From assembly GCA_030156615.1 (NCBI GenBank), contig JASGME010000002.1:7085-71084 (forward strand): a stretch of DNA of 64,000 nt, written 5' to 3'. Of this stretch, positions 7,024 to 57,968 are shown in pieces (the first letter of the stretch is position 1; each line of letters opens with the position of its first letter). The DNA comes from Candidatus Woesearchaeota archaeon. Lineage in GTDB: Archaea; Nanobdellota; Nanobdellia; Woesearchaeales; UBA119. A program made the translations under genes and the position numbers. The notes beneath the pieces are model-generated. The model was not told where the DNA came from, did not search any database, and saw only the letters and a program-made list of their open reading frames with translations.

Positions 7024-7833
7024 TTAGCCTTTTAGCTTGTTTGATTGTTTGCTTTTATGTAAAAAGAAATTAAAGATTAGAGCAAAGATTATCATTGAAA
7101 TAGAAAGCCATTGTCCCATAGACAGATTGAGCCAGAGCAGGCCTAATTGCTCATCCGGAGCTCTGAGGAATTCAACAAAAAAGCGGAGAATTCCATATAG
7201 CAACACGAAGAGGATGAAAAGAGAACCTTTCCTTCTTTCAACATCATGTATATATTTCTTTTTGTAATATGCAAAGAGTATGAAAAATATCAGTAGATTT
7301 TTTCCTGCTTCATAAAACTGTGAAGGATGTCTTGGGAGCATTAAAGGATCTGTTGTAAATCTTATTGCCCAAGGCACCATTGTAACTCTGCCGTATAATT
7401 CTCCATTTAAGAAGTTGCCAACACGACCAAGTGCAAGTGCCAAAGATGCTGGTATTACAATTAAATCAGCAACCTCTAAAAAAGGAATAGATTTATGTCT
7501 GCAATATAGATATACAAAAAGAACTGCACCAACAAGTCCTCCATGAAACGATAGCCCTCCATTCCAGATGGCAAAAATTTGCATTGGATTTGAAATATAA
7601 TAAGGCAGGTTATAGAACAGGATGTAAAAGATGCGGGCAAATATCAGGCCACCTACTAAACCCCAAAATAGGAGCTCTAAAGCATCTTCTTTTTTTCCTA
7701 GACCTCTCTTTTGATAGAAATGGCTGAATATGAAATAAACTATTAAAAAACCAAGAACATAGAAAAGACCATAATATCTTATTTCAAAACCAAAGAAAGA
7801 GAATAGAACTGGCTGAGGATCATAAGTTATCAT
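7024..7833 (-). CDS. lgt: Prolipoprotein diacylglyceryl transferase (Lgt) homolog
   Basis: Block-by-block match to bacterial Lgt: 'YGLFYVLGF', 'WGLVGGLIFARIFYILFYN', Lgt signature 'WNGGLSFHGGLVGA', 'GRVGNFLNGELYGR', 'LPRHPSQFYEA', 'RFFVEFLRAPDEQ', 'LSMGQWLSISM'. Confidence 0.85.
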   Translation of the reverse strand: MITYDPQPVLFSFFGFEIRYYGLFYVLGFLIVYFIFSHFYQKRGLGKKEDALELLFWGLVGGLIFARIFYILFYNLPYYISNPMQIFAIWNGGLSFHGGLVGAVLFVYLYCRHKSIPFLEVADLIVIPASLALALGRVGNFLNGELYGRVTMVPWAIRFTTDPLMLPRHPSQFYEAGKNLLIFFILFAYYKKKYIHDVERRKGSLFILFVLLYGILRFFVEFLRAPDEQLGLLWLNLSMGQWLSISMIIFALIFNFFLHKSKQSNKLKG

Positions 7834-8051
7834 ACAGACTTGCTTTATTGTTTAATTAATAAGTTTTTCTTATTTTGATTCTGATAAAAATATTTTTAAT
7901 TGTTTTCGAGCTCATCGACTAATATGTCGCCAACCCAGGATTTAACGAAGTCGCCGAAGGCGATTTGAGAAAATTGCGAGCCACGTGATTTTTCTTTTAT
8001 CCATTGCAAGGATATGGTTGAACGAAGGGAGAAGCATAGCGTCTCCACGAG

Positions 8052-8285
8052 TTACGAGTCAGCTTTTTGTTTCCTTACTAAAGAATGTATCCCCCAACCT
8101 AAGAGAAAACCAATAATTCCGAAAAACAAGAATAAAAATATTATTGGTAAGAAATCCGTATTGAATTTAGAAAAATTTATGTGTGTATTAGGTAACCAAA
8201 ATAATGAAGATATCCCAATTAATAATCCCATCCAACTCCCCCACATTTTGAAAGGATCGTATGATTTTTTTATTTTATCCGTCAT
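8052..8285 (-). CDS. Small hypothetical membrane protein
   Basis: 77 aa with two hydrophobic helices. Preferred over the overlapping + strand ORF 8014..8298, which is low-complexity and non-hydrophobic. Confidence 0.3.
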   Translation of the reverse strand: MTDKIKKSYDPFKMWGSWMGLLIGISSLFWLPNTHINFSKFNTDFLPIIFLFLFFGIIGFLLGWGIHSLVRKQKADS

Positions 8286-8572
8286 ATTATTTTATTAAAT
8301 TAAGTTAATATAAATAACTTTTCATCTTAAAATCTGGCTCGTAATTTTGCCTAACATCGCTATTAAGAGAAGTTCTGTTTTCATCGTGAAGCGAAGCAGA
8401 ACATAGTTGAGAATGAATTTAGGTGTAGTGAGGTGTAACCGAATAAAACAATTCAAGCCATGTTAAGTTTGTTTTCCATACAAAGTGTGTTGAACTTGTG
8501 TCAGCAGGTTTGAGTTTTTATCTTCAAGCACGAAACGACATCTAAAATGAGAATACAAGTGTAACATTCTAA

Positions 8573-8854
8573 CTATTTAATTTCCCCTATCCACTTTAAG
8601 AAATATATTAGTACAATTATTAATCCTGCACCTATGATTCTTGGCAAACCAGCCAACCATTCGAATATTCCTAACCACCAAGGAATTGCGGCATCAGTAA
8701 TTAATTCAGTTGCTTTTTCAATATTTTTTTCAGGAGAATTGCTATTCATTGTAAATGACCAGAATGCCATCTTTATCAAAAGAGGAAGAACGAAAATTAT
8801 GAAAACTGCAAGAATCGCAATTTCTTCTTCATCTTTCATTTTAGAATTACTCAA
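8573..8854 (-). CDS. Small hypothetical membrane protein
   Basis: 93 aa, two TM helices. Stop overlaps the start of the upstream gene 8847..9611 (operon-like). Confidence 0.4.
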   Translation of the reverse strand: MSNSKMKDEEEIAILAVFIIFVLPLLIKMAFWSFTMNSNSPEKNIEKATELITDAAIPWWLGIFEWLAGLPRIIGAGLIIVLIYFLKWIGEIK

Positions 8855-9611
8855 AAGTATAAGGGTATACTTTTTGTTCTACAATTTCTGAAGAATCATC
8901 TAAGCAATAACACATAAAGCCATTTTCGGTGGTGCTGTATTCCATAAAATATTGTGTAGCAGAATCAACATAATAACAATAATTGCTACATTTCATTTCA
9001 ATATCTTCTGGGACATAATCAAAATTTGCGCTAATTAATATGCCATATCCGAAACTTAATAGTAAAATAACGATTCCTATAATCAGAGCAATGATAGAAA
9101 TTCCCATTCCTTTGAGTTTGTGATTTTTCGATATTCTATTTAAACTTATTATTGCGAAGATTATTCCAAATATTGGGGATAAAAAAGCGTAAATTATTGA
9201 TAGAATAGGCCATATTTGCATACCTCTTTGAGTTTCCTTTAAATTACCATAAGTCTGTTTTACTCTTTCAGATTTATTCAAATACAAAATCCAAATAATG
9301 AAGTACACTGTCCCATTAAAAAAAAGATAATAATCTAAAAAAATTACTGCATTAGCAATATTCAAAATTAAAGTAGTTATTAAAAAAATCTTTGTGAATT
9401 TGACACCAAAGGGCTTTTTAGTCCATAGGAAAATCCCTGCCAAAATAGATAAGCTCAAAAAAGCGAAACTTTCAATAATTTCAAGAATGGTATAGAATTG
9501 GCATTCAGATAAAATTATGAATAAATTGAAAATTGGATTAATAAAGACTAATGTTATTATAAAGAATAATAACCATCCACCGATGTTTTTTAGTTCGTTT
9601 TTTTCTAACAT
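8847..9611 (-). CDS. Polytopic membrane protein with Cys-rich C-terminal domain
   Basis: 254 aa, about 6 hydrophobic helices, then 'CSNYCYYVDSATQYFMEYSTTENGFMCYCLDD'. No recognisable family. Confidence 0.5.
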   Translation of the reverse strand: MLEKNELKNIGGWLLFFIITLVFINPIFNLFIILSECQFYTILEIIESFAFLSLSILAGIFLWTKKPFGVKFTKIFLITTLILNIANAVIFLDYYLFFNGTVYFIIWILYLNKSERVKQTYGNLKETQRGMQIWPILSIIYAFLSPIFGIIFAIISLNRISKNHKLKGMGISIIALIIGIVILLLSFGYGILISANFDYVPEDIEMKCSNYCYYVDSATQYFMEYSTTENGFMCYCLDDSSEIVEQKVYPYTFE

Positions 9612-9943
9612 CTGCTATGTAAATTTCAAAAGTAGTATATATTTATTTTGTTTTTTAGATTGTAGTCCTCTTCAAGATTTTAGAAAACTAAAACTCAATT
9701 GGAAATAAATCTGGCTTAAGAGAAGTTCAATTTCCTCGAAAAAATTCTCATTGTTAAACAGAGCTGAAATTGAGTTTTGATGGAGAAATCTGCAAGACTT
9801 AGTAACCTCATAATCATTGTTATGCCCCTAGAAGGGCTATTTTGGAATTTTTGGATTATTGATAAATTCGACTACAGGAAGTGTATCTGTCTGAAGGATG
9901 AGAGAGGGGCGTCAGATTTTTTTCTTCTTTTTCTAAAAAGAAT

Positions 9944-10480
9944 CTAAAATTGATTTACAATTCCATAAATAATATCATTATAATATTTACCATCTTTTGA
10001 TTTAATGGCTTCCTTTAATTCTCCTTCTTTTTCATATCCTGCTTTGCTTAATACTCTTTCAACTGCCTTATTAAGTTCATGAAAATGTGCAAATATTCTA
10101 TGATACCGCAATTCTTTGAAAATATAATTTGTCATTATTTTTATTGCTTCAGTCATATAACCTTTATTCCAATAATTCTTGGCAACCCAAAATCCTATTT
10201 CCCCGCTTTTATTTTCATCATCCAAATCAAAAAAACCAATTGTTCCGACAAGTTCATCTGTTCTTTTTTCATAAATTCCAAAAATGTAAGATTTTCTTTC
10301 TAAGATATTTTTTTTGGAATTCTTTATGTATTCTAAGGCTCTCTCTATAGATTCTGAAGCTTTATATGGCCCAGAGAATTCATTCAATTCTGGTTCTTTT
10401 GAATATTCATGAAGCTTTATTGCATCAGTTTCATTAATCTCTTTTAAATAGATTCTATCTCCAATAATCTTTATTTCCAT
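9944..10480 (-). CDS. GNAT family N-acetyltransferase (RimJ/RimL-like)
   Basis: 'VGTIGFFDLDDENKSGEIGFWVAKNYWNKGYMTEAIKIM' acetyl-CoA-binding core typical of GNAT. Confidence 0.8.
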   Translation of the reverse strand: MEIKIIGDRIYLKEINETDAIKLHEYSKEPELNEFSGPYKASESIERALEYIKNSKKNILERKSYIFGIYEKRTDELVGTIGFFDLDDENKSGEIGFWVAKNYWNKGYMTEAIKIMTNYIFKELRYHRIFAHFHELNKAVERVLSKAGYEKEGELKEAIKSKDGKYYNDIIYGIVNQF

Positions 10481-10623
10481 ATTTATTTTTAAGATAGTGC
10501 AGTTTTTATAGTTTATTATTCTGAAAATATTCGTAAAAAACTTTTATCATATTTAAATCAAAAAATATATAACCTGATGAATCTGATTTAATCATAATTA
10601 AATGCAAACTGGTTTTTTAAGAG

Positions 10624-12123
10624 GTGGAAATGATTGTATTTAAGAGGAATGCTCTGGTTTTTGTAACTTTTGTAATTGCTCTTTCCTTCATGCTAAGTGA
10701 GCTTGCCTTATCTTTTAATGTAAATCCTGAACACATAAAAGAAGGAGATCAGGATGTTCTAATAATTCAAACGGATTCTCCAGCTTCCTGCATCCTTGAA
10801 CTGGAGAGCGGAAATCTTAATCTAAGAGCCAGCGATTCGGATAATAAGACTTTCAGATATCCTCTTTCTCCTGTTAATCAAACAATAACAGGAATTTGCG
10901 AGTCTCTGGAAAATCCAAATGAAAAGGAAAGATTCAAGATAGACATTACTGTAGGAATAACTGAAAAAACTGTTTCAGATGATATTGATGAAACAAAGAA
11001 TGAAGCCCCAAAAGAATCTTTTGAAATTCTTTTTGTTGAACCTTCAGAGTATAGTAGTCTTTATGAAAACAGCAGCATAACAATAAAGACAAGTACTGAT
11101 GCTAGTTGTAGCATAAAAATTGGCAATAATAAGTATGGAATGGAAAGCCTTGATAACAGGCAATTTAGAATAAATGTTTCTTCATTTGCAAAAGAATTAA
11201 GAAATGGCAATATCAAACTTGTATTTGAATGCAATACAAAGTATGGATTAAAAACTGAGAGCATAAATTATGTTTTTGACAGCAATGGAAAAACTAGCAC
11301 AAGCATTACTTCAGGAAGCAATGATAACAGAGAGATGACATTTAAAGGATTTGAGGGAGAAGGCATTATGGATTTTTTTAACTGGCTTTTTAATTTATTG
11401 ATTGAATTTCTACCGATTGCACTTCAAGTTGCAAAGGATAATTTAATTATAGTTTTTATTGCAATTGTATTCGTTGTTGTAATTATTAGTTTGGCGATTT
11501 CAAGGAAGTTTTCTCAAAAAAATAACGAAAAGAAAAGGATGAAAATCCCTAAAGAAGATCTTGAGAAAGTTTTCTTTCCTGAGAAATCAGATAAAGAGAA
11601 CAATAAAGGCAATGATGAGAATAGCATACAAAAAAATAAAAATTCTATCAAGAAGCTAAAGCATGAAGGTATTGATATGAGAGCTTTTGCCGAATTTGAT
11701 TATAATGAAGCTAATACTGATGATAAAATGAAAAAGGACATAAAAGAAAAAGATGAAATTGATAAAGAAAAAAACAAAGGAAATAGCAACAGATGGATTA
11801 ATATATACGAATTGATTAGACCAAAGAAAAAGGGGAAACCAAAAATGAAAAATCAAGAAGATCCAATAGGGGCGCTGCAAAAAGAGATTTATCTTGAAGA
11901 GATTAAGGGGAAAACAGAGTTAAATGTAATCTTTGAGAGTCTGAAGAGCATTTATGAAGATAGCCATGATACGAAGATAATTAAATGGGCCATAAACAAG
12001 CTCTTTGAAAACAATCAGATAAAGAAAGGAGATGCTGTTGAGCTGGTTAATATGCTTAAGGAAAAAGAGATTTTAGATGATATGCAGGCTTTGGATATCT
12101 TAAGTGATCTTAATCTTATATGA
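10624..12123 (+). CDS. Type-I-like surface protein (signal peptide, ectodomain, single TM, K/E-rich cytoplasmic tail)
   Basis: N-terminal hydrophobic signal, TM 'LIIVFIAIVFVVVIISLAI' near aa 270, charged low-complexity tail, then a conserved-looking C-terminal alpha-helical segment. Confidence 0.6.
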   Translation: MEMIVFKRNALVFVTFVIALSFMLSELALSFNVNPEHIKEGDQDVLIIQTDSPASCILELESGNLNLRASDSDNKTFRYPLSPVNQTITGICESLENPNEKERFKIDITVGITEKTVSDDIDETKNEAPKESFEILFVEPSEYSSLYENSSITIKTSTDASCSIKIGNNKYGMESLDNRQFRINVSSFAKELRNGNIKLVFECNTKYGLKTESINYVFDSNGKTSTSITSGSNDNREMTFKGFEGEGIMDFFNWLFNLLIEFLPIALQVAKDNLIIVFIAIVFVVVIISLAISRKFSQKNNEKKRMKIPKEDLEKVFFPEKSDKENNKGNDENSIQKNKNSIKKLKHEGIDMRAFAEFDYNEANTDDKMKKDIKEKDEIDKEKNKGNSNRWINIYELIRPKKKGKPKMKNQEDPIGALQKEIYLEEIKGKTELNVIFESLKSIYEDSHDTKIIKWAINKLFENNQIKKGDAVELVNMLKEKEILDDMQALDILSDLNLI

Positions 12124-12160
12124 ACTTGAAGGTTATAATAAAGTATAAAGAAGTCGTTGA

Positions 12161-12820
12161 TTAATGTTTCATAATAAATCTTTCTAGCTCTTCATCTATC
12201 TTTTCATACATAGGATAATTTTTTTCATCTTCTTTAAATCGCTTTGTGTGATATTGCCTATTCAGCGAAGATCCATAACCATGCTTTTTATGAAGAAGTT
12301 CATGATACATAACATAATCTAAAAGATAGGCTGGAGCCTCTTTAAGGATAGATGAGATAATGATTTCATCTGAATCAAAGTTATATTTTCCAAGGATTGT
12401 TTTTGATGGCTTTCCAAATCTTATTCTTGTAACTGCCATTGAAGAATCAAAAAAGTTTTTGTTTACTCTGTGAAAGCTATCCTCTAAGATTTTGTTCTCT
12501 ATTTCTTCATGAATAAGCAATGGAGAATGAACCTTCTTCAGGAAAGAATCCATTAGTGTTATTGAGAGAGTTTTCTTCTTTTTATTAAACAATTTGCACA
12601 TTAAAACTTGTACGGCTCCTTTTTGAATCTCCCAGCTACAATTCTTCCATGGATCGCCGAGTCTGAATTCTATCCTCTTTTTTTCTCGATTAAAGAGTGC
12701 TTTTGACCTGTATCCCCTAATCTTTTTAGAGTATTTTAAAACAAGAATATATTCTTCTAGATTGAGCCCTAGCTCTTCTGCTGCTTCTTTCAATCTTTTG
12801 AAATCATCCGAATCTTCCAT
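12161..12820 (-). CDS. YgjP/DUF45-like HExxH metal-dependent hydrolase
   Basis: C-terminal 'LLDYVMYHELLHKKHGY' fits the DUF45 'YVvvHELaHl.e.nH' zinc-binding block. Size about 220 aa. Confidence 0.5.
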   Translation of the reverse strand: MEDSDDFKRLKEAAEELGLNLEEYILVLKYSKKIRGYRSKALFNREKKRIEFRLGDPWKNCSWEIQKGAVQVLMCKLFNKKKKTLSITLMDSFLKKVHSPLLIHEEIENKILEDSFHRVNKNFFDSSMAVTRIRFGKPSKTILGKYNFDSDEIIISSILKEAPAYLLDYVMYHELLHKKHGYGSSLNRQYHTKRFKEDEKNYPMYEKIDEELERFIMKH

Positions 12821-12863
12821 TTGACTTTAGTATCTTGTATTTTATTGATTTTAGATGTAATAA

Positions 12864-14030: not shown

Positions 14031-14042
14031 AAAGTGATAGAA

Positions 14043-16064
14043 TCATTGATTTATCTTTTTGTAGATTTCATTTAACTCAGGGAAAATCTTCTTTCTCTCT
14101 GACAATGGTAATGAGTCATATATATTAAGCATATTGATATACATCTTCTTTGCCTTTGCAATATCTGAAGCGGTAAGATGTGGTTTAGATAAAAGATTAT
14201 TGCAATCATCAACAAGACTTCTTAGATATACCATCTGCTTTGATTCCTTTACAAAAACACTCTTGAGCTTTTTCCTTCCTTGTATTTCCTTGCCAGCTAC
14301 CTTAAAAGGAACATGCCTTCTTATGTGGAGGTTTAGGCTTAATCTCTCAAATAAGCCCTGCATAAAGAATACAAGAGAAGCCAGTATCAACAAAAACAAA
14401 GTCATATATCCTAATTCAGATGAGATTGTAGAAAATGTTGATTTAAACAAAATCATATCCCGATACGTATTGTATGTTAATACAAAAGGACTGAATTCCG
14501 TTACCTTTCTTATATTTTGAGGCATAGACTCCAAAGGGATTAATGTGCCTGAGAGAAGCAAGAGAATCAATCCAACTACAAGGGCAGCCATAAGACTTGT
14601 CTCTTCGCTCCTGAATAGATTAGCAATGATAATTCCAAGAAGGATAAAGAATGATGATGAAAGAGCAGAGATTAGCAAGATGAAATGTAAATTTGAGAAT
14701 ATTGCTGTTTTGAACACCAATGCAGTGATTGAAAGAATTATCATTATTTGAATTAAAACCAACAGCAATGTAACTAGGAATGTTCCTAATGAGAATACAG
14801 TCTTATTAGATGGTATGATGAGATTGCGGAAATGTGCCTTTGAATTTCTTTCCATCTGTACAAGGGTTGAAGAAAGAAGAAGACTTACGAACATAACGAT
14901 TAAAACCAAGAGATTAGGGAATAAATATGATAGATGAGTTTCATTAACTAAAACAGGAGACACAGTGGTTTTGATTGGTTGCGATATTAATTCAGAATCT
15001 TTAATTTCAATATCAGCGATCATATCCTCTATTGCATTAATCCCTGCCTGTATCTCCATTATCTTGCTTAATTGATTTACAAGTGTCTGCTTCATTGCCT
15101 GGGTTTGTGAAATTAACTTGTTCCTTGCCTCATTCATTGATGATATCTCAGATGCTAGGGATTCCAATTGATTTTCAATACTACTAACATAAGAAGATAA
15201 CGATGCAATATTTGATTGCACTAATTCAAAAGAATCTTCATTTGATATGTTTGAGGCAAGTTCCTTCGCTGAATCTATTGCTGAGTATAAAGCGCTTTTA
15301 TACGATTCGTTAATATTCAAAGAGGATGCTTCTGATTCAATCTCTTCTAGAGATGACATTAAATCTGATACTGAATCATCTATGATCTCGCCATATTGAG
15401 AGAAAGATCTTGAAGCTGATGAGATTGCCGATGATAACTCTAAAACCTTAAAATCAGAGATGTCGAAATCCACTGTCATTCCCTGAGAAGAAGAAATAAT
15501 TGAGTTTGTTGTCGTTATTAATTCATCATTTTGGGTTGTCAAAGCAATAATAGATTTTTTTCTTATTGTTAATTCATCATTTATATCTTCAAAGACATCT
15601 AAAAGTTTCTGTGATAAGGATTGGGATAGCTCTGTTGTCCTGTTTGATATCTTCTTGAATATCGCATCCTGAATAAGACCTGCAAGATTAAGTTGAGAAT
15701 TATCTATGTAAATGTCTATGCTTGAATTAGAATCTGCCTCTACTCTTAGATCCGGAGAAAAAATAATACAGGCATGATGAGTTCCTGATCTTACTGCTTG
15801 AATACATTCTTCTTGAGAAGAAAGCTTGAAAACCCTATATGCATTATCTGATAGAGCATCTATGTAAGATTCAGTTAATTCAGAATATTCATCAGAATAA
15901 ACAGCAAGTTTTATATTATGATAACCAGATGTGTCAAAAGCAAGCCCTACCATAAACACAATCAAAAGAGGGCCTATTATAACTATTAGAGAAGAGAATC
16001 TTGAACGAATCAATGTGAGGAATTCCTTTTTTATTACTTCTCTAAGCTTTCCCAAGTTTAACAC
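14043..16064 (-). CDS. ABC-2 family permease with YhgE/Pip-type extracellular coiled-coil insert
   Basis: N-terminal TM, about 350-aa Ser/Glu/Ile-rich coiled-coil ectodomain, five C-terminal TMs, cytoplasmic C-extension. Directly downstream of the ABC ATPase. Confidence 0.75.
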   Translation of the reverse strand: MLNLGKLREVIKKEFLTLIRSRFSSLIVIIGPLLIVFMVGLAFDTSGYHNIKLAVYSDEYSELTESYIDALSDNAYRVFKLSSQEECIQAVRSGTHHACIIFSPDLRVEADSNSSIDIYIDNSQLNLAGLIQDAIFKKISNRTTELSQSLSQKLLDVFEDINDELTIRKKSIIALTTQNDELITTTNSIISSSQGMTVDFDISDFKVLELSSAISSASRSFSQYGEIIDDSVSDLMSSLEEIESEASSLNINESYKSALYSAIDSAKELASNISNEDSFELVQSNIASLSSYVSSIENQLESLASEISSMNEARNKLISQTQAMKQTLVNQLSKIMEIQAGINAIEDMIADIEIKDSELISQPIKTTVSPVLVNETHLSYLFPNLLVLIVMFVSLLLSSTLVQMERNSKAHFRNLIIPSNKTVFSLGTFLVTLLLVLIQIMIILSITALVFKTAIFSNLHFILLISALSSSFFILLGIIIANLFRSEETSLMAALVVGLILLLLSGTLIPLESMPQNIRKVTEFSPFVLTYNTYRDMILFKSTFSTISSELGYMTLFLLILASLVFFMQGLFERLSLNLHIRRHVPFKVAGKEIQGRKKLKSVFVKESKQMVYLRSLVDDCNNLLSKPHLTASDIAKAKKMYINMLNIYDSLPLSERKKIFPELNEIYKKINQ

Positions 16065-16072
16065 CTTTCCAC

Positions 16073-17038
16073 TTATTCTTTTTCGGTTATAGTTGCAAAA
16101 TAATCAGCAAGCGATGGCTTGTTCATTTCAATGCTTATTATTCTCTCATTGAGAGAGTTTGCAATTTCAACTATTTCCCTCAATGTTTGCTCTCCGTTTT
16201 GAGTAAAAAGAATCAGGCTTTGACCTTCGTTTCTTATTTGATTTAAAGTTTTCCTTTTTTTAAGAAGCCCTGCAATCTTTTGATAATTGCCGGGTGATGT
16301 CTCTAAGAGAATCCTGCTGCCCAATGCCAGATCATCCCTAATCTCTTTCGGAGTTCCTTCGCGGATTATTTTTCCTTCAGAGAGAATTACAAGCCTCTCA
16401 CAATTCTGCTCTAAATCAGAGACTACATGTGAAGCAATCAGAATCGTTGTTCCCTGCTCATGTATCTTGTTTATAATTGCCCACATCTGATCCTTTAGAA
16501 CAGGATCAAGATTTGCAGTCGGTTCATCAAGAAAAAGAATCTTTGGGTTATTTATTAGGGCACACGCCATATCAAGTCTTTTTTGCATACCTCCAGAAAG
16601 TGTCTCGGCAAGTTTATCCTTAAAGATGTATAATTCAAAGAGATCTAGAAGAATTTTGATTCTTTCTTCTGATGTGTGTTTTGGAAGTCCGTAAAAAGAT
16701 GCGAAAAACCTCAGATTTTCTTCCACGGTTAATTTTTCATAAAAAGAGGCAACCTGACTTGAAAACCCTACTTTTTGCCTAAAGTATTCCTTTAGCAGTG
16801 TAACTGATTTGAAGACTAACTTGCCATCGTTTGTTTTATGAGAAAAATATACATCACCGCTTAGAGGCTTAAAAATGCCTATCAATGAGGAAAGTAAAGT
16901 GGTTTTTCCAGAACCAGACATTCCTATTATGCCTAGCAATTCTCCTTCATAAACATCAAGATTGATTTTATCAAGAATGAGATAGCCTTCAATCTCTATG
17001 CTTAAGTCCTTTGCCTTGAGGATTATCCTGCTTTCCAT
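16073..17038 (-). CDS. ABC transporter ATP-binding protein
   Basis: Walker A 'GMSGSGKTT', signature 'LSGGMQKRLDMACAL', Walker B 'ILFLDEPTANLD', H-loop 'IASHV'. Confidence 0.9.
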   Translation of the reverse strand: MESRIILKAKDLSIEIEGYLILDKINLDVYEGELLGIIGMSGSGKTTLLSSLIGIFKPLSGDVYFSHKTNDGKLVFKSVTLLKEYFRQKVGFSSQVASFYEKLTVEENLRFFASFYGLPKHTSEERIKILLDLFELYIFKDKLAETLSGGMQKRLDMACALINNPKILFLDEPTANLDPVLKDQMWAIINKIHEQGTTILIASHVVSDLEQNCERLVILSEGKIIREGTPKEIRDDLALGSRILLETSPGNYQKIAGLLKKRKTLNQIRNEGQSLILFTQNGEQTLREIVEIANSLNERIISIEMNKPSLADYFATITEKE

Positions 17039-18040: not shown

Positions 18041-18043
18041 GAG

Positions 18044-18634: not shown

Positions 18635-19397
18635 GAAAATGAAAACACTAACAATACTCTCGGGAAAAGGAGGAGCAGGAAAGACAACCCTGTCTTCTAA
18701 TTTAGCAGTTCTCCTTTCAAATGAAAAGAAGATTGTTGCAGCGGATTGCGATGCTGATGCTCCAAATCTTAGTTTAGCATTAGGCATAAAGGAGAATGAT
18801 TTTTCTAAATGGGAAAGAGTTCAGACAAATGAAAAAGCTGTTCTTGATGAGGAAAAATGTGATGGATGTAAGAAATGCTTTTAGGTTTGTAATTTTGGGG
18901 CTATTTCTTGGGATGAAAAAAGGAACAGGCCAATATTTAATTCAATGTTATGTGAAGGATGTGGTGCTTGTCAGTTAGTCTGTCCTAAAAAAGCAATTAA
19001 ATTAGTTAAGGTTTACAATGGTAAGATTTGGGAAGCAGACACGAGATATGGTTTTCCCTTGTTTTCTGGTCAATTAAAGGTAGGTGCTACTGGCTCAGGG
19101 AAGATTTTCTCTTTAATAAAAGAGAAGGCTGAAGAGAGAGCTTTGAAGACTGCTGATCATTTTAGGATTCCTTACGGCATAGTCATTAACAAGTTTGATT
19201 TGAACATCGATTTTTCAAAAAAGATTGAGAGATTTGCAAAAAACAAAGGCATAGATATTCTTGGAAGGATTCCGTATAATAAGAAGATTGTAGAAGCTCT
19301 TGTTGAGCTAAAACCAGCAATTGAATACGACAAAACCCTTGAACCTATATTCAATGAAATTCTAAGCAATATTTTAAAAAAGCTTGAAGAGATATAA
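18627..19397 (+). pseudogene. MinD/Mrp-like P-loop ATPase with 2x[4Fe-4S] ferredoxin insert (MJ0578-like), interrupted by an in-frame TAG
   Basis: ORFs 18627..18884 and 18945..19397 are in the same frame and are separated only by TAG at 18882-18884. Reading through gives 'CDGCKKCF*VCNFGAISWDE...CEGCGACQLVCPKKAI', two intact CxxCxxCxxxC(P) clusters. The N-terminus is 'SGKGGAGKTT', the deviant Walker A of the family. Confidence 0.7.
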
Positions 19398-19510
19398 AGC
19401 AGGGTATGCATTTTTAAATTTTTAAATAAGAAACGAAAGATTAATAAATAATCATTATAATAATGACAATAAAACAATAAAAGAAATCTCAAAAAGAGAG
19501 GGGTTTAAGA

Positions 19511-19894
19511 ATGATAATAACTAAAAAGAGACCTTATAATGGGATAAAGAAGGAGTTATCTAAAAAAGATAAGATTGGGGTAATATCGTGCAATGCCTGT
19601 GCAAGAATGTGCAAAACAGGAGGCAGAGAAGCCCTTGAAGAGCTTGCCGGGAAACTAAAGAATGATGGATTTGAAGTCGTTGATATGGACCTCATAGGAA
19701 CACCATGCAATATTGATATGCTTCAGAAGAATCAATTGCATGGGAATGCTCAAGTGGCTCTCTGCTGTGATGCAGGCATAGAAAATCTAAAACAGATTTT
19801 TCCAAAGAACAAGATAATTCCTGCTTTGAAGACGATTGGATTAGGGGCATATAATAACAAAGGGAAAATATGGCTTATCAGAGAATTCAAATAA
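19511..19894 (+). CDS. Small Cys-containing hypothetical protein (CxxC...C...CC)
   Basis: 127 aa: 'GVISCNACARMCKTGG', 'GTPCNIDML', 'ALCCDAGIENL'. Possibly a metal/Fe-S-binding partner of the upstream module. No family recognised. Confidence 0.5.
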   Translation: MIITKKRPYNGIKKELSKKDKIGVISCNACARMCKTGGREALEELAGKLKNDGFEVVDMDLIGTPCNIDMLQKNQLHGNAQVALCCDAGIENLKQIFPKNKIIPALKTIGLGAYNNKGKIWLIREFK

Positions 19895-19986
19895 AAGAAT
19901 TGTCAATTTTTAAAATAAAGGATTGCTTCCAAAAGGTTTAAATACTAAATAAATTAGACTTGATTAATACCAAGTATCAATGATAG

Positions 19987-20259
19987 GTGAACAAGATGGT
20001 CGATGAGGATAGGAAATTTTCAAAAAAGATTCTTGGATTAACAATCATTAGCAAGACAGGTAGGAAATTTGGTGAGGTTGGGGATTTAGTATTTGAAACA
20101 AAATCAGGAGAATTAATACATCTTCAGGTGCAGAATCCAACACCTTATGCACAAAAGCTTGATTTAGAGAAGAGCAAGGAGGGAGATTTATTAATTCCTT
20201 TCAATGCTGTGCTTGCTATAGGAGATATGGTTGTTGTATCTGAAGAGGACATTATTTAA
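19987..20259 (+). CDS. PRC-barrel domain protein
   Basis: 90 aa: 'ISKTGRKFGEVGDLVFETKSGELIHLQV ... LLIPFNAVLAIGDMVVV' fits the PRC-barrel pattern. Confidence 0.55.
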   Translation: MNKMVDEDRKFSKKILGLTIISKTGRKFGEVGDLVFETKSGELIHLQVQNPTPYAQKLDLEKSKEGDLLIPFNAVLAIGDMVVVSEEDII

Positions 20260-20285
20260 TCCAATCAATTTTTCCTTTTTCTAAA

Positions 20286-21260
20286 ATGGTAGAAGAGTTT
20301 AAGAGTGAGATTTGGATTGAGAAATATAGACCTAAAAGCTTTGATGATGTTAAGGGACAAGAACACATAGTTGAAAAATTGAGAGGCTTTGTTGATAAAA
20401 AAAACATGCCACATCTTCTTTTTGCAGGACCTGCTGGTGTTGGTAAGACTACATTAGCTGTTGTTACGGCAAAAACATTGTTTAAGGAGAACTGGCGAAG
20501 CAACTTTATGGAGTTAAACGCTTCTGATGAGAGGGGCATAGATGTTATAAGAAATAAGGTAAAGGACTTTGCAAGAACAAGAGCTATAGGCGATTTGCCT
20601 TTTAAGATAATATACCTTGATGAAAGCGATGCTCTTACAAGGGATGCTCAACAGGCTTTAAGACGAATAATGGAGAATTATACAAGGACATGCAGGTTTA
20701 TTCTTGCGTGCAATTATTCCAGCATGATTATAGATCCTATACAATCAAGGTGCGCTCTTTTCAGATTCAGGCCTTTATCTAAAGAAAATATTTTTGAAAT
20801 AATTGAAAAGATAGCTAAAGCAGAATCTATTGTTGTAACAGATGATGCAAAAGAGGCACTATATAAGGTTTCTCAGGGAGATTGCAGAAAACTTGAAAAT
20901 ATAATGCAGGCATGCAATGCAATATCAAATAAGATAGGTGAGAATCTTGTTTATTCAATAAGTTCTACTGCAAGGCCAGAAGAAATCAAGAAGATAATTT
21001 CATTGGCCATGAATAACAGATTTATTGAAGCAAGAGACCTCCTTATAGATACTATGCTTCAATACGGCCTCTCAGGTATAGATATTGTGAAACAGATTCA
21101 GAGTGAGGCTGTAAATATGGATGGCATAGAAGATAAAGAAAGACTTGAAGTTATAAGATATTGTGGAGAGGTTGAATTCAGACTTGTAGAAGGCTCTGAT
21201 CCTGTAATTCAGTTAGAAGCCCTCTTAGCCAAGATAGCGACTATTAATCAAAACAAATAG
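20286..21260 (+). CDS. rfcS: Replication factor C small subunit
   Basis: 'IEKYRPKSFDDVKGQEHIV', Walker A 'GPAGVGKTT', 'IIYLDESDALT' (DEAD-like), 'SRCALFRF' sensor motif. 324 aa. Confidence 0.9.
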   Translation: MVEEFKSEIWIEKYRPKSFDDVKGQEHIVEKLRGFVDKKNMPHLLFAGPAGVGKTTLAVVTAKTLFKENWRSNFMELNASDERGIDVIRNKVKDFARTRAIGDLPFKIIYLDESDALTRDAQQALRRIMENYTRTCRFILACNYSSMIIDPIQSRCALFRFRPLSKENIFEIIEKIAKAESIVVTDDAKEALYKVSQGDCRKLENIMQACNAISNKIGENLVYSISSTARPEEIKKIISLAMNNRFIEARDLLIDTMLQYGLSGIDIVKQIQSEAVNMDGIEDKERLEVIRYCGEVEFRLVEGSDPVIQLEALLAKIATINQNK

Positions 21261-21287
21261 AAAAAAAAACATTAAAAAATTATTTCT

Positions 21288-22253
21288 TCAGTCAAAACCT
21301 GAACTTGAACGGACTTCCAGCTGAGTTGATGTAGTATCAGAGTAATCATATTCAACCGTTATTGGAAGAACTTTCACATAATCACCTGCTGCTGAATCAG
21401 CTACCTCAATATTACATCTTACTGATACTAATCCGCCAGAGATTATTCTGGTTGCAAATGATTGACCTGCAGGAACACCATTACATTCTATATTGACTGA
21501 ATCCCATCCCCAATTCACAGGATCTCCTACTGTAACTCTCACCACTCCTTTTGAAGAAAACGAAGATGAGTCACAATCTTCTCCGAGTTTATATATTCCT
21601 CCATTTCCTACATGCTTAATTTCTATTGAAAGAGAATATCTGTTATCTCCTAAAGCCTTCTGAGTTACAGACGATATTTGAACAGGAGCTCCTGAGGAAT
21701 ATACTGGCCTTGCGCCGTTTGGATTACAAACTCTTGTATCGGTAGGATTCTCTGCTATGCAAATAACAGATTCTGCATTTGTTTCATAAGGATAACAAAT
21801 GTCAGCATAGATAGGCATATTCAATCTGGTGTTTATTGATGGAACATATTTAAGTGGGCCAAAAGAGACATCCGCTATATCTCCTGACACGACTTGATTA
21901 TCTATCTTATCTTTTCCTGAGAGTCCGGTATCAATAACCTTGCGCAGATCACTCTCCATTATACCAAAATCTCTATAAGAAAAGCCCGATAAAGAAACAA
22001 CTGCTGAATTCGGAGGGATATCATATTCCCCAAGATTTTCTACCCTCAAAGAAACGAAAATCTCGTTATTTCCTTGATCATATAAAACATAGCCTTCTTC
22101 AGGGATAATCCAGTTCATCACTAAGCCAGAAGTACCACCTATAAAACCGCTCTTGCTTCCTTCCTCGCCAGTTGGTTGAGTGCCGCATCCAGTTAATAGC
22201 ACTAATAGAACAAAAAGAATCCCTAGCCTATAGTATGATTTCATTATTTCCAC
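21288..22253 (-). CDS. Secreted putative lipoprotein (paralog family 1 of 3)
   Basis: Signal peptide ending in lipobox 'LLTGC'. Shares a C-terminal region with 23105..24028 and 24080..25045 ('...GAPVQISSV' / 'GQGAPVEFREV' / 'GQGAPINVVSV'). Confidence 0.6.
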   Translation of the reverse strand: MEIMKSYYRLGILFVLLVLLTGCGTQPTGEEGSKSGFIGGTSGLVMNWIIPEEGYVLYDQGNNEIFVSLRVENLGEYDIPPNSAVVSLSGFSYRDFGIMESDLRKVIDTGLSGKDKIDNQVVSGDIADVSFGPLKYVPSINTRLNMPIYADICYPYETNAESVICIAENPTDTRVCNPNGARPVYSSGAPVQISSVTQKALGDNRYSLSIEIKHVGNGGIYKLGEDCDSSSFSSKGVVRVTVGDPVNWGWDSVNIECNGVPAGQSFATRIISGGLVSVRCNIEVADSAAGDYVKVLPITVEYDYSDTTSTQLEVRSSSGFD

Positions 22254-22362
22254 CCGTTAATTTTTGTATTATTTTTTATTTCTGATTGCTATATTCAATT
22301 TATCTAAAAAGAGTTTATATATTTTTCTGTTTATTGGGCTGTAAAATAAGTTATATCGTGCA

Positions 22363-22965
22363 TTATTTCTTTATCTTTTCATTTTTCTTCGAAGAATGTG
22401 CCAAATGTTTTAACTCCCCAATAGAAAAGTCCTTTAGTTTAAAGCTTTCATCTAAATCAAAATAGCTTATTGCACAAAAACCTGTCTTAAAATGAACATT
22501 TTCTTCTTCAGGCAAGCTTAAGAAAAGCATTATCAAATCAGAAATAAATCCTGCATGAGAAACGATTAACAAATTCTTTGCATTTTCTTTTTTTAACTTC
22601 TCACAAAATATTTTTGCTCTTTCATAAGCATCTTCTCTATTTTCCCCTCCTTCTGGTCTAAATTCATCTTTAGATAAGCCTGAATTTTCAATAGCTTCCT
22701 TAAATTCTCTATCAGATTTCCCTTCAAATATCCCTAACTCTTGTTCGTTAACATCTTGTGTATATTCTACAGAACATTCTTGATATCTTAATATTGGCTT
22801 TAATGTTTCTTTAGTCCTGTTCTTATATCCGCAAATTATTTTATCCAACTTTATTGTTTTAAAAAAATCTGCGGTTCTTCTCGCCTGCTCTTTTCCAATC
22901 TCAGTTAAACTATCCTGCTTTTCACAATGTCCTCTTTGACTATGCCTTAATAGATAAATTTTCAT
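22363..22965 (-). CDS. Histidine phosphatase superfamily protein
   Basis: 'IYLLRHSQRGH' RH(S/G) motif and 'VSHAGFI' second His block. Confidence 0.7.
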   Translation of the reverse strand: MKIYLLRHSQRGHCEKQDSLTEIGKEQARRTADFFKTIKLDKIICGYKNRTKETLKPILRYQECSVEYTQDVNEQELGIFEGKSDREFKEAIENSGLSKDEFRPEGGENREDAYERAKIFCEKLKKENAKNLLIVSHAGFISDLIMLFLSLPEEENVHFKTGFCAISYFDLDESFKLKDFSIGELKHLAHSSKKNEKIKK

Positions 22966-23104
22966 ACTTCACTAAAAGAATAGTTTATTATATAAGTCTA
23001 ATGTCTTATAAAATCATAGATAATCTCATGCCTTTTAACAAGATCAAATTCATCAAATGATAAATCAGACAGCATGATTTCTATTTTTCCTTTTATATTT
23101 CAGA

Positions 23105-24028
23105 TTAAGATTCTTTAAGGAATGTTGCTTTAATTGGGATTGATGTTGAATCAACGTAGATATAATCAACAGTCAGGGTTAACAATCCAGAATAGGGACC
23201 ATCATTTTGAACAGGTTCTCCAAAGCTGCAAAATACATATGTTCCCTGAGAATCAACCTTTGCATTTCTTGGTGAGCATTCAATGGTTTTACCTTCAAAT
23301 GTTGCTCTAACTGTTAGCCTATATGCATCTTTGTTCTCCGAATTCAAAAAAGAACATTGTTGAAGATGAGAAAATCCAAAGAACTTTTCTGGGAATGGAA
23401 TGCCCTTGCCGGCATTTCTAACAAAAACCTGAAATCCTAGTTCGTTTGGTGTTACAACAGGAAGCACTTCTCTAAATTCAACTGGAGCCCCTTGTCCTCC
23501 CGAGAAGCTTAATCTTTGCATCTTACACCCATTAGATTCACCTTGCGAGGGGTCTATGCAAACAATAGTTGATAGCTCAGTTGTATATTTATAGCAATAT
23601 TTAACGAACAGATTCATAGAATACTCAAAATCTTGATCTCGCGACAAAAAAGGAAGATTTATGCTGCCATCAACGGCAATAGAATACGAATCTGGAAGTT
23701 GGTCTGAACTTTCCCTTCCATATAAGACATCATCTCGACTATACAAAGAATTTTGTTCATTCAGATTAAATAAACTTGGATCATAGCCAGAATATGTTAT
23801 ATAAAGATCTTCTGCAGACACATCGGAACTGCCATAATTTATAATATCAAGAATCAGTTCAAAATTAATATTAGAAGAAGTTGTATAAGGATTTTGGTTC
23901 AACATCTTTCCTGTAATCTCTATGCCTTTAGTGCCTAGAGTTGCTTGTGAGGTTTGTTGTTGACAGCCACTTATCAGAAGTGAAGCTAATAATAAAAATG
24001 ATATTAGCATTTGTTTTAATTTTTCCAT
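23105..24028 (-). CDS. Secreted putative lipoprotein (paralog family 2 of 3)
   Basis: Signal peptide with lipobox 'LLISGC'. Paralogous to 21288..22253 and 24080..25045. Confidence 0.6.
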   Translation of the reverse strand: MEKLKQMLISFLLLASLLISGCQQQTSQATLGTKGIEITGKMLNQNPYTTSSNINFELILDIINYGSSDVSAEDLYITYSGYDPSLFNLNEQNSLYSRDDVLYGRESSDQLPDSYSIAVDGSINLPFLSRDQDFEYSMNLFVKYCYKYTTELSTIVCIDPSQGESNGCKMQRLSFSGGQGAPVEFREVLPVVTPNELGFQVFVRNAGKGIPFPEKFFGFSHLQQCSFLNSENKDAYRLTVRATFEGKTIECSPRNAKVDSQGTYVFCSFGEPVQNDGPYSGLLTLTVDYIYVDSTSIPIKATFLKES

Positions 24029-24079
24029 AGCAGATTATTAAATAAAGAAGTTTAAAAAGCTTTGGGAAAGAATTGAAAA

Positions 24080-25045
24080 TCAATGTTTAACTATCCTTAC
24101 CGGAATATTTGTTTGAGCGTAATAACCATAAGCAAGGGGAATTTCTAAGATTGTAGTATAAGAGGCAACATCTTCTTCAAAGACTGCTGTGCACAGGATT
24201 TTGGCTTCATTATTAACAAAAGGAATGGTTTTATAACCAAATCCAAGACCTTCACAATCAAAAGAAATTCCATGCCTAGAAGTGCCCATGAGTATATCGC
24301 CTAATTTTATATTCCCTACAATAATTCTATTCATTTTTGCATCTTCTGGCATTTGTCCTGTTTCACAATAATTGAACGGACTTGGAACAGCGGAGCCTAT
24401 TGGAATTGGTGTTCCTTGCATCATATTCCTTAGTGTAATGACGAATTCAACTTTTCTCTTGCCATTTTCTTCTAAATATGTATTCTGCTCAACTGAAACA
24501 ACATTTATTGGGGCTCCCTGCCCGATTGAAGATATAGACCTAAATGTGCAGGCCTTTTGGTTTGAAGGCAATTCTGGATGAGTATCTATGCAGATTGATG
24601 TTTTAAACACCGTTGAATATGAGTAGCAGAGCAGCATTTCAATATTTGCGATTTTAGATTCTGTTAATGGATCTAAATAAGGAACAACATTTATGCTGTA
24701 TGCTTCTTCAGGCTGGGCAGTAGATATCGCTGATCTTCCATCGAGATTAAAAGAGAATGATTTTGAGACGGATGTCCCTATTGGATCTTTAAATTCAAGA
24801 AATGATGAGGTTCCTTTAACAACAACAACGCCAGAAGCAGGATAATTCCCTGTATTTTTTATCTTAAAAGTTAGAGGAAAGATTTTGCCTCGAATGGCTG
24901 TTGATGGCAAGGTATTCCTGTCAATCTCTATTTCTATTCCCCCTTTGTATTCTTTAATTTCTGGTTCATCATTGCCATTTTGTTGACAAGAAGGGAGAAA
25001 TAATAGAGAAAGGAACACTAAGGCAACCAAAATCTTGATTTTCAT
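24080..25045 (-). CDS. Secreted putative lipoprotein (paralog family 3 of 3)
   Basis: Signal peptide with 'FLPSC' lipobox-like motif. Conserved C-terminal block shared with the two neighbours. Confidence 0.6.
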   Translation of the reverse strand: MKIKILVALVFLSLLFLPSCQQNGNDEPEIKEYKGGIEIEIDRNTLPSTAIRGKIFPLTFKIKNTGNYPASGVVVVKGTSSFLEFKDPIGTSVSKSFSFNLDGRSAISTAQPEEAYSINVVPYLDPLTESKIANIEMLLCYSYSTVFKTSICIDTHPELPSNQKACTFRSISSIGQGAPINVVSVEQNTYLEENGKRKVEFVITLRNMMQGTPIPIGSAVPSPFNYCETGQMPEDAKMNRIIVGNIKLGDILMGTSRHGISFDCEGLGFGYKTIPFVNNEAKILCTAVFEEDVASYTTILEIPLAYGYYAQTNIPVRIVKH

Positions 25046-57953: not shown

Positions 57954-57968
57954 AAATAAGGATTTCAG

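What the first reader, a model, noticed from the sequence alone, without database searches (positions are those of the whole stretch)
7024..25045. Bacterial-type lipoprotein pathway in an archaeal context: bona fide Lgt plus a triplet of paralogous lipobox proteins
The 269-aa ORF matches Lgt signature blocks residue-for-residue, yet the neighbours (aRF1, RFC, AglB, TrmB) are archaeal. Three adjacent paralogs (21288..22253, 23105..24028, 24080..25045) have signal peptides ending in 'LTGC', 'ISGC' and 'LPSC' with Cys as the predicted +1 residue. These are likely substrates. Lgt is rare in archaea and probably arrived by horizontal transfer. Here it coexists with AglB N-glycosylation, so surface proteins may be both lipid-anchored and N-glycosylated.
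Basis: partly seen in the sequence, partly recalled or inferred. Interest (0 to 1): 0.68.

Follow-up and report, generated by a model that had tools for sequence, protein, structure and literature searches.

The report
Bacterial-type Lgt lipoprotein enzyme in Woesearchaeota
A DPANN (Woesearchaeota) archaeon carries an intact copy of Lgt, the bacterial enzyme that lipid-anchors surface proteins, together with three likely substrate proteins, although recent archaeal literature says no archaeon has this enzyme.

Summary
ORF 7024-7833(-) is a canonical Lgt. It passes the curated Pfam and NCBIfam cut-offs, keeps 11 of 11 functional residues of E. coli Lgt, and its model matches only 5AZB in the PDB (TM 0.79).

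It lies among archaeal genes (aRF1, RFC, AglB, TrmB) with no compositional break. The same gene order recurs in six independent assemblies, so the contig is not chimeric.

The three lipobox ORFs are real but distant paralogs. They are the only lipobox ORFs in the 64 kb. They belong to a large family (2308 cluster representatives) whose named members are all Woesearchaeota or Nanoarchaeota. The lipobox Cys is invariant, and 147 of 150 top members pass a signal-peptide plus lipobox test.

- Lgt is common in this lineage. All named hits among the 120 best are Woesearchaeota, Nanoarchaeota or 'archaeon'. This is not a one-off transfer.
- The three proteins carry no N-glycosylation sequons (8.3 expected), so they are not dual-modified.

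No Lsp was found in the window or in about 30 related loci. Elsewhere in the lineage, lgt is tightly linked to an unknown membrane protein and to a lipobox gene.

Reviews from 2018 and 2025 state that no archaeal Lgt homolog exists. The lipid donor is unknown.

The parts
7024..7833 (-). lgt: prolipoprotein diacylglyceryl transferase homolog, 269 aa. Motifs: HGGL at 7534-7545, GRVGNFLNGELYG at 7390-7428, RHPSQFYE at 7309-7332, YGILRFFVEFLR at 7162-7197.
   Evidence: PF01790 E=1.9e-75. TIGR00544 204.3 bits, cut-off 118.9. 5AZB E=2.2e-44. 11 of 11 functional residues conserved, and conserved in its 120 closest homologs. AF2 model pLDDT 90.3, and Foldseek finds only 5AZB, TM 0.79/0.75, E=1e-14. 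Motif coordinates.
21288..22244 (-). Lipobox protein 1, 318 aa from the ATG (an alternative GTG lies at 22253). Signal peptide plus lipobox LTGC is encoded at 22185-22244; Cys+1 is residue 20.
   Evidence: Family profile hit at 282.9 bits. AF2 model pLDDT 93.4, an all-beta two-domain ectodomain. No sequons.
23105..24028 (-). Lipobox protein 2, 307 aa. Lipobox ISGC at 23963-23974; Cys+1 is residue 22.
   Evidence: Paralog of protein 1 (E=7e-11) and of protein 3 (E=2e-8).
24080..25045 (-). Lipobox protein 3, 321 aa. Lipobox LPSC at 24986-24997 (Pro at -2 is atypical); Cys+1 is residue 20.
   Evidence: Paralog of protein 1 (E=6e-6). Identical to P0121, a 'hypothetical protein [Candidatus Woesearchaeota archaeon]'.

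Best explanation
The window comes from a Woesearchaeota (DPANN) archaeon. Its lineage stably maintains a canonical, catalytically intact Lgt.

Proposed mechanism:
1. Proteins with an N-terminal Sec-type signal peptide ending in [L/I/V][A/S/T][G/A/S]-Cys are exported. None of the three has a twin-arginine motif.
2. The seven-helix membrane enzyme Lgt transfers the diradylglyceryl moiety of a phosphatidylglycerol-type lipid onto the thiol of the invariant Cys, forming a thioether.
3. The signal peptide is then removed by a peptidase that has not been identified.

The three paralogs here are members of a very large family that appears restricted to this lineage. They are disulfide-rich, two-domain beta-sandwich surface proteins held on the membrane by this lipid anchor, and they avoid N-glycosylation.

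Shown here: homology, fold and active-site integrity of Lgt; its archaeal genomic context; its breadth in the lineage; conservation of the lipobox across the family; and operon linkage of lgt to a lipobox gene in relatives.

Inferred, not shown: enzymatic activity, the enzyme-substrate pairing, the nature of the lipid donor (archaeal ether or bacterial-type ester lipid), and signal-peptide cleavage.
For: Lgt identity. The residues Y26, H103, D129, R143, N146, E151, G154, Y235, R239, E243 and R246 of E. coli Lgt correspond to Y20, H97, D123, R137, N140, E145, G148, Y213, R217, E221 and R224 here. Ten of them are invariant in all 121 sequences (window plus its 120 closest homologs); E243 is kept in 120 of 121. 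The structure model matches 5AZB uniquely, TM 0.79.

Archaeal context and non-chimerism. In relatives, lgt sits beside Spt5-NGN and NFACT-R and beside Fibrillarin and Nop5.

Breadth: every named hit among the 120 best is Woesearchaeota, Nanoarchaeota or 'archaeon'. About 25 archaeal species genomes carry it, including one single-cell genome. An HMM built only from the other archaeal Lgts scores the window protein at 329 bits, against 271-295 bits for bacterial HMMs.

Substrates: the three are the only lipobox ORFs in 64 kb. The family profile finds 2308 cluster representatives at E<=1e-3. Of the best 150, 147 pass the signal-peptide plus lipobox test; position -1 is G, A or S in 146 of those 147. 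The lipobox Cys is invariant in a 104-sequence alignment, as are six further Cys. All named members are Woesearchaeota or Nanoarchaeota.

Functional linkage: in L006 and L095/L096, a 167-aa lipobox ORF (…FVIAGCSAQ…) overlaps the lgt stop codon. A DsbA-like oxidoreductase lies in the same cluster.
Against: There is no biochemical evidence. In this window lgt is 13.5 kb from the lipobox genes, so there is no local operon link.

No Lsp homolog was found in the window or in about 30 archaeal lgt loci, so the canonical second step of the pathway is unaccounted for.

The usual donor lipid, sn-1,2-diacyl phosphatidylglycerol, has the opposite glycerol stereochemistry to archaeal lipids. Whether these cells contain a usable donor is unknown.

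The archaeal AliA route (PMC12462473) could not be excluded for this genome, because only 64 kb is available.
Confidence: 0.8

Rival explanations
1. Assembly or binning artefact: a bacterial lgt fragment was joined to archaeal sequence.
For: Lgt is otherwise a hallmark bacterial gene. A 1.96-kb strain-variable insertion begins 120 bp upstream of lgt, and one contig breaks there.
Against: An identical or 62%-identical Lgt lies in the same archaeal gene order in six independent assemblies from different samples. GC, GC3 and codon usage are indistinguishable from the neighbours. The strain lacking the insertion still has lgt between the GNAT and TrmB genes. Dozens of other archaeal contigs carry lgt next to Fibrillarin/Nop5 or Spt5.
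Confidence: 0.01
2. The Lgt homolog is real, but the lipobox proteins are lipidated by the archaeal AliA-type system. Lgt then has another role, or a redundant one.
For: AliA (arCOG02177) is reported in DPANN 'with some gaps', and it is the only experimentally supported archaeal route (PMC12462473). The stereochemistry of archaeal lipids differs from Lgt's known donor.
Against: All functional residues of Lgt are held invariant across the lineage. lgt is translationally coupled to a lipobox gene in relatives. The 2025 paper itself notes archaea with many lipoproteins but no AliA or AliB. No AliA-like gene was recognised in the window, but no AliA profile was available to test this.
Confidence: 0.1
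3. The gene is a recent, one-off horizontal acquisition by this organism, which is essentially the first reader's view.
For: The closest non-archaeal relatives reach 42% identity (Gracilibacteria). NJ bootstraps do not recover a single archaeal clade (10 of 200).
Against: Composition is fully ameliorated. Homologs at 45-64% identity occur throughout Woesearchaeota and Nanoarchaeota. The window protein fits an archaeal-only HMM better than bacterial ones. Synteny is conserved in a 62%-identical relative.
Confidence: 0.04
4. The 'lipobox' is only a signal-peptidase I site, followed by a Cys that forms a disulfide. No lipidation occurs.
For: The proteins have six other invariant Cys. An SPase I-like gene lies nearby. 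LP3 has an atypical Pro at -2.
Against: Counting the lipobox Cys there are seven invariant Cys, an odd number. Cys always follows G, A or S at -1 and L, I, V or F at -3, directly after the hydrophobic core, in 147 of 150 diverged members. This is the bacterial lipobox consensus, and the lineage encodes an intact Lgt.
Confidence: 0.05

Closest known systems
Bacterial Lgt (phosphatidylglycerol:prolipoprotein diacylglyceryl transferase; E. coli Lgt, PDB 5AZB/5AZC; PF01790, TIGR00544)
   Same: It matches full-length above the curated cut-offs. All 11 residues important in E. coli Lgt are present. The predicted fold is the same (TM 0.79, 33% identity). It co-occurs with lipobox-bearing secreted proteins.
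   Different: The host is an archaeon, so the membrane lipids are expected to be, or could be, G1P ether lipids. The periplasmic head region is about 20 residues shorter than in E. coli (alignment). No Lsp was detected nearby. In many relatives it is coupled to an uncharacterised membrane protein that is unrelated to Lsp or Lgt.
Archaeal AliA/AliB lipoprotein biogenesis proteins (arCOG02177/02178; Hfx. volcanii HVO_2859 and HVO_2611; PMC12462473)
   Same: The presumed outcome is the same: lipidation of a lipobox Cys on archaeal surface proteins. AliA is also reported in DPANN.
Other bacterial systems reported in Woesearchaeota (sigma-70, GroEL/ES, DnaK, MEP pathway, bacterial G3P dehydrogenase and fatty-acid genes; PMC8204110)
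   Same: This is another bacterial-type module stably embedded in Woesearchaeal genomes.
   Different: Lgt and lipoproteins are not mentioned in that paper's text or in its two supplementary files held here.

Membership tests
Lgt (PF01790 / TIGR00544) | Full-length sequence match above the curated family thresholds | tested here: met
   PF01790 253.7 bits (cut-off 24.9). TIGR00544 equivalog 204.3 bits (cut-off 118.9).
Lgt (PF01790 / TIGR00544) | Functionally important residues of E. coli Lgt (Y26, H103, D129, R143, N146, E151, G154, Y235, R239, E243, R246) | tested here: met
   All 11 are present in the window protein, and at least 120 of 121 sequences keep each one across the window protein and its closest homologs. 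The residue numbering was mapped from the 5AZB alignment; which residues matter functionally is taken from my own knowledge of the Lgt literature.
Lgt (PF01790 / TIGR00544) | Seven-helix membrane fold of 5AZB | tested here: met
   AF2 model with pLDDT 90.3. Foldseek finds only 5AZB at E<=0.001, with TM 0.79/0.75. The head region is shorter than in E. coli.
Lgt (PF01790 / TIGR00544) | Catalyses diacylglyceryl transfer from phosphatidylglycerol to the lipobox Cys | not testable with these tools
   This needs complementation or an in vitro assay. The donor lipid in an archaeal cell is unknown.
Complete bacterial lipoprotein pathway (Lgt-Lsp-Lnt) | Signal peptidase II (Lsp, PF01252) present | tested here: inconclusive
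   An HMM built from 22 Lsp genes that neighbour lgt in bacterial loci finds nothing in the 64-kb window or in any archaeal locus. Only about 20 kb per genome was available, so Lsp could lie elsewhere.
Complete bacterial lipoprotein pathway (Lgt-Lsp-Lnt) | Apolipoprotein N-acyltransferase (Lnt) present | not tested
   No systematic scan was made. None of the window ORFs I scanned gave a nitrilase/Lnt-type hit.
Complete bacterial lipoprotein pathway (Lgt-Lsp-Lnt) | Substrates with a signal peptide ending in the lipobox [LVI][ASTVI][GAS]C | tested here: met
   LTGC and ISGC fit the consensus; LPSC fits except for Pro at -2. 147 of 150 family representatives carry the motif, and the Cys is invariant in 104 of 104 aligned sequences.
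AliA/AliB archaeal lipidation system | Membership of arCOG02177/02178 | not testable with these tools
   No AliA sequence or profile was available. The paper reports only HHpred probability 29% between AliA and PF01790, so a 1e-75 PF01790 hit is not AliA. Whether the genome also encodes AliA is unknown.

The most novel reading that the evidence does not exclude
Woesearchaeota may run a third kind of lipoprotein biogenesis. In this reading, a bacterial-family Lgt has crossed the 'lipid divide' and works either on archaeal G1P ether lipids or on G3P or scavenged bacterial lipids in an archaeal cell. It would work without Lsp, and signal-peptide removal or another step would be carried out by the uncharacterised polytopic membrane protein ('mp261') found directly upstream of lgt in every one of the nine lineages where it was found. 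This would also fill the gap noted in 2025, of archaea with many lipoproteins but no AliA or AliB.
Probability: 0.3. Interest if true: 0.85.

Novelty: new member of a known kind. Interest (0 to 1): 0.62.

Why it matters
The standard statement in the archaeal cell-surface field is that no archaeal genome encodes a homolog of Lgt, Lsp or Lnt (PMC6098224 from 2018; PMC12462473 from 2025). That premise motivated the search that found AliA and AliB.

This window, and hundreds of related sequences, show that a whole DPANN lineage carries a textbook Lgt plus a very large family of lipobox proteins. NCBI's annotation pipeline already names these genes, but no paper in the searchable library discusses them.

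Three things follow:
- It corrects the premise.
- It offers a candidate for the lipidation route that the 2025 paper says remains to be discovered in archaea lacking AliA and AliB.
- It makes an open question directly testable: can an Lgt-family enzyme use archaeal-type lipids, or do these archaea hold bacterial-type lipids? Some Woesearchaeota encode bacterial G3P dehydrogenase and fatty-acid genes and may be episymbionts of bacteria (PMC8204110).

Tried and rejected
- **Lsp search.** A motif scan and an HMM built from 22 bacterial Lsp genes next to lgt gave no hit in the window or in any archaeal locus. A genome-wide search was not possible.
- **Phylogeny.** NJ trees with 200 bootstraps did not resolve archaeal monophyly (10 of 200). 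The result is a trichotomy of window+P0002, the other Woesearchaeal Lgts, and a bacterial set. No maximum-likelihood tool was available, and bacterial sampling was limited to loci that matched the peptide patterns.
- **Synteny around lgt in distant relatives.** It is not conserved with this window, only in close relatives.
- **Linkage of the lipobox family to lgt.** A family HMM gave only two marginal, sub-threshold hits (E about 2e-4 and 8e-4) near lgt, in L003 and L004, and none elsewhere.
- **mp261 identity.** It has no Pfam or NCBIfam family. hhalign against Lsp and against Lgt profiles gives probability 0.1% each, so it is neither a divergent Lsp nor an Lgt paralog.
- **AliA presence.** Supplementary data of the AliA paper are not held, and no AliA sequence was available.
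- **Single-cell genome locus L064.** A Pfam scan of its neighbours found housekeeping genes that are not diagnostic of domain.
- **RNA genes.** There are no tRNA or Rfam hits in the window.
Full report
**What is in the window.** The 64-kb window has uniformly low GC, 0.29-0.40 in 2-kb windows. Its informational genes are archaeal. RFC small subunit scores 466 bits against NF001679 (cut-off 303), and aRF1 scores 421.8 bits against TIGR03676 (cut-off 234.7). STT3/AglB and TrmB are also present. Proteins identical or 99% identical to ORFs of the window are deposited as hypothetical proteins of 'Candidatus Woesearchaeota archaeon' MAGs.

**The Lgt ORF.** ORF 7024-7833(-) encodes 269 aa.
- It matches Pfam LGT (PF01790) at E=1.9e-75 over nearly the whole profile.
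- It scores 204.3 bits against the NCBIfam equivalog TIGR00544, whose cut-off is 118.9.
- Its only sequence relative in the PDB is E. coli Lgt 5AZB/5AZC, E=2.2e-44.
- Using that alignment, the E. coli residues Y26, H103, D129, R143, N146, E151, G154, Y235, R239, E243 and R246 map to Y20, H97, D123, R137, N140, E145, G148, Y213, R217, E221 and R224. All are conserved here, and each is kept in at least 120 of 121 sequences among the window protein and its 120 closest homologs. The functional importance of these residues is from my knowledge of the Lgt literature, not from a tool result.
- An AlphaFold2 model built on 67 homologs (pLDDT 90.3) has a single significant Foldseek match in the PDB, 5AZB, with TM 0.79/0.75 and E=1e-14.
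- The region corresponding to the E. coli head subdomain is about 20 residues shorter.

By every sequence and structure criterion I could test, this is a member of the Lgt family.

**Not a chimera.**
- Lgt has GC 0.351 against 0.347±0.029 for 44 window genes, and GC3 0.289 against 0.296±0.043. Eight of the 44 genes deviate more in codon usage.
- The exact Lgt protein is found on two other contigs from different sequencing runs, in the same gene order (L081 and L082).
- A 62%-identical ortholog in NCBI assembly GCA_002505945.1 and three further runs sits in the same order: aRF1-SprT-hypothetical-Lgt-TrmB-AglB-GT2-DUF2304-radical SAM-GT2.
- In more distant relatives, lgt lies next to Spt5-NGN and NFACT-R or Fibrillarin and Nop5.

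**How common it is.**
- Of 5984 database hits, the 120 best are one 99%-identical copy (P0001) plus homologs at 45-64% identity. Every one that carries a name is Woesearchaeota, Nanoarchaeota or 'archaeon'.
- A scan of one genome per species returned about 25 archaeal species-level genomes with the gene, including one labelled as a single-cell genome, alongside bacteria.
- Six of the archaeal contigs are labelled 'uncultured Methanosarcinales' but have 28-38% GC and a Woesearchaeal-type Lgt. I regard these labels as doubtful.
- The window protein averages 47% identity to the archaeal set and 35% to the sampled bacteria, with a maximum of 42% to a Gracilibacteria genome.
- An HMM built from archaeal Lgts, excluding the window protein and its close kin, scores it at 329 bits. 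Bacterial HMMs score it at 271-295 bits.
- NJ bootstrapping does not recover a single archaeal clade (10 of 200). The window+P0002 pair (200 of 200), the remaining archaeal sequences and a bacterial group form an unresolved trichotomy.

The gene is therefore old and widespread in this lineage. A bacterial origin is plausible but not demonstrated here.

**The lipobox proteins.** The three ORFs begin MKSYYRLGILFVLLVLLTGC, MEKLKQMLISFLLLASLLISGC and MKIKILVALVFLSLLFLPSC.
- A PROSITE-style lipobox rule, applied to all ORFs and all start codons, returns only these three in 64 kb. The window encodes many other secreted proteins.
- They are distant paralogs at 20-27% identity, with E-values of 7e-11, 2e-8 and 6e-6.
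- A profile of the three finds 2308 cluster representatives at E<=1e-3 and 1782 at E<=1e-10 among 1.84 billion proteins.
- Of the best 150, 147 pass the signal-peptide plus lipobox test. Position -1 is G (106), A (22) or S (18), and position -3 is mostly L, I, V or F. The other three are truncated or narrowly miss my filter.
- In a 104-sequence alignment the lipobox Cys is invariant, together with six other Cys. This suggests three disulfides plus one free, modifiable Cys; that is inference.
- All named members are Woesearchaeota or Nanoarchaeota.
- The AF2 model (pLDDT 93.4) is an all-beta, two-domain ectodomain following a helical signal peptide and a linker. Foldseek gives only generic Ig-like or beta-sandwich similarity with TM <=0.23, so its molecular function stays open.

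**Link between Lgt and lipobox proteins.** In this window the genes are 13.5 kb apart. In a widespread marine Woesearchaeal lineage, however, a 167-aa ORF beginning MKIKIKFILFIAFLFVIAGCSAQ overlaps the lgt stop codon by 4 nt (L095/L096 and L006). The cluster also encodes a DsbA-like oxidoreductase with a CPFC site. That arrangement fits a module for maturation of exported, disulfide-bonded, lipid-anchored proteins.

**What is missing or unknown.**
- An Lsp HMM built from 22 bacterial lsp genes that flank lgt in the fetched bacterial loci finds nothing in the window or in any archaeal locus. This covers only about 20 kb per genome, so absence from the genomes is not shown.
- The lipid donor is unknown.
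- The literature reports that the early Woesearchaeota genomes lacked G1P dehydrogenase while some encode bacterial GpsA (PMC5059525 and PMC6431249).
- It also reports that some Woesearchaeota have bacterial fatty-acid and G3P dehydrogenase genes, and large murein-lytic surface proteins suggesting bacterial hosts (PMC8204110).

**An unexpected partner.** An uncharacterised polytopic membrane protein of about 260 aa ('mp261') lies directly upstream of lgt in six of the 24 distinct archaeal genome loci and in three further lineages looked up through the protein itself. It ends 0-290 nt before the lgt start, or overlaps it. Every occurrence I found, in nine lineages, is next to lgt.
- It has no Pfam or NCBIfam family.
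- It is unrelated to Lsp or Lgt by profile-profile comparison, probability 0.1% each.
- Its named homologs are all Woesearchaeota or 'archaeon'.
- Invariant residues include D33, S79, K82, K90, N156 and R248.
- It is absent from this window.

Its role is unknown. A function in the lipoprotein pathway is a hypothesis only.

**N-glycosylation.** The three proteins contain no N-X-S/T sequons, against 8.3 expected from composition; none of 2000 shuffles was as low. Family-wide the mean is 0.45 against 2.74 expected, and 102 of 150 members have none. Other secreted proteins of the window carry 2-3 times more sequons than expected, for example 14 against 4.7, 16 against 4.8 and 26 against 11.4. So these lipoproteins appear to avoid AglB, in a genome whose other surface proteins appear to be heavily glycosylated.

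[quoted passage not shown] The 2025 AliA/AliB paper repeats that no archaeal Lgt or Lsp homologs were identified. It also notes archaea that have many predicted lipoproteins but lack AliA and AliB (PMC12462473). Full-text searches combining Woesearchaeota or DPANN with diacylglyceryl transferase found no paper reporting the gene. The DPANN 'bacterial systems' paper does not mention it in its text or in its two held supplementary files. NCBI's pipeline already names these proteins, so the gene is known to databases but not, as far as I could find, to the literature.

**Verdict.** The ORF is a canonical Lgt family member in an archaeal lineage, with conserved candidate substrates. It is ordinary as an enzyme and notable for where it is, so I file it as a new member of a known kind. 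Interest is 0.62. The upside depends on the lipid donor, on Lsp-independent processing, and on the mp261 partner.

Noticed in passing
window 21288-25045 (the three lipobox ORFs), compared with 29701-52575: The lipobox family is strongly depleted of N-glycosylation sequons: 0 against 8.3 expected in the three ORFs, and a family mean of 0.45 against 2.74 expected. The other secreted proteins of the window are 2-3 times enriched. This suggests selective avoidance of AglB by these lipoproteins.
   Followed up: partly
L087 9214-9999, L023, L006 874-1659, L008 9205-9996, L002 759-1604, L003 3044-3829, L010 9158-9967, L092 4001-4777, L093 4001-4780, L095 4001-4783: A polytopic membrane protein of about 260 aa with no known family ('mp261') lies immediately upstream of lgt, often overlapping it, in all nine lineages where it was found. 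It is usually preceded by a 69-aa ORF, a TM plus thioredoxin-like ORF of about 145 aa, and sometimes a DsbA-like gene. It is followed after lgt by a lipobox ORF in L006 and L095. It is unrelated to Lsp or Lgt by hhalign, and it is not present in this window.
   Followed up: partly
window 7954-9916: A 1.96-kb segment of about 28% GC carries a DUF2569/DUF4190 membrane ORF (8847-9611). It begins 120 bp upstream of lgt. It is absent from the 99.2%-identical contig L081, which has 159 bp there instead, and the 100%-identical contig L082 ends inside it at window position 8043. It is a strain-variable insertion.
   Followed up: partly
L003 9276-10136: One Nanoarchaeota MAG contig carries a second, divergent Lgt paralog 5 kb from the first. 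It scores 105 bits against the window Lgt and branches apart from the others. It lies beside homologs of the 69-aa and thioredoxin-like ORFs.
   Followed up: no
window 30983-34337 and 43256-45960; also 14043-17038 and 46023-48733: There are duplicated surface-protein modules. One pair of paralogs of about 300 aa is 64% identical (30983-31885 and 43256-44152). A four-member family of about 245-310 aa occupies 31958, 33609, 44182 and 45034. All are sequon-rich with signal peptides but no lipobox and no Pfam family. There are also two paralogous ABC ATPase plus ABC-2 permease pairs.
   Followed up: partly
window 57966-64000 (+), running off the end: A giant ORF of more than 2011 aa carries Big_13, Big_7 and other Ig-like domains. 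Relatives have ORFs of 900 to more than 3000 aa beyond the start of this window, the end where the AglB cluster lies. This recalls the very large extracellular proteins described for Woesearchaeota (PMC8204110).
   Followed up: no
window 52584-56531 (+): A 1315-aa protein has an N-terminal TM segment, a CarboxypepD_reg-like domain and a HerA/FtsK-type P-loop ATPase domain (DUF87, E=1e-11). It follows two coiled-coil-rich surface proteins of about 1050 aa.
   Followed up: no
By eye the sequence has an SM-P type serine motif (TDSMKPT) and an IIHRV motif, so the call is plausible but below threshold.
   Followed up: partly
L002, L005, L010, L011, L034, L036: These MAG contigs are titled 'uncultured Methanosarcinales archaeon'. 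They carry Woesearchaeal-type Lgt (41-50% identity to the window) and have 28-38% GC. The taxonomic labels look unreliable.
   Followed up: no
window 27168-28217 (+): This 349-aa ORF matches only the N-terminal half (positions 2-337 of 645) of the archaeal RqcH profile, at 228 bits, below the cut-off of 400. It may be a short or split RqcH.
   Followed up: no
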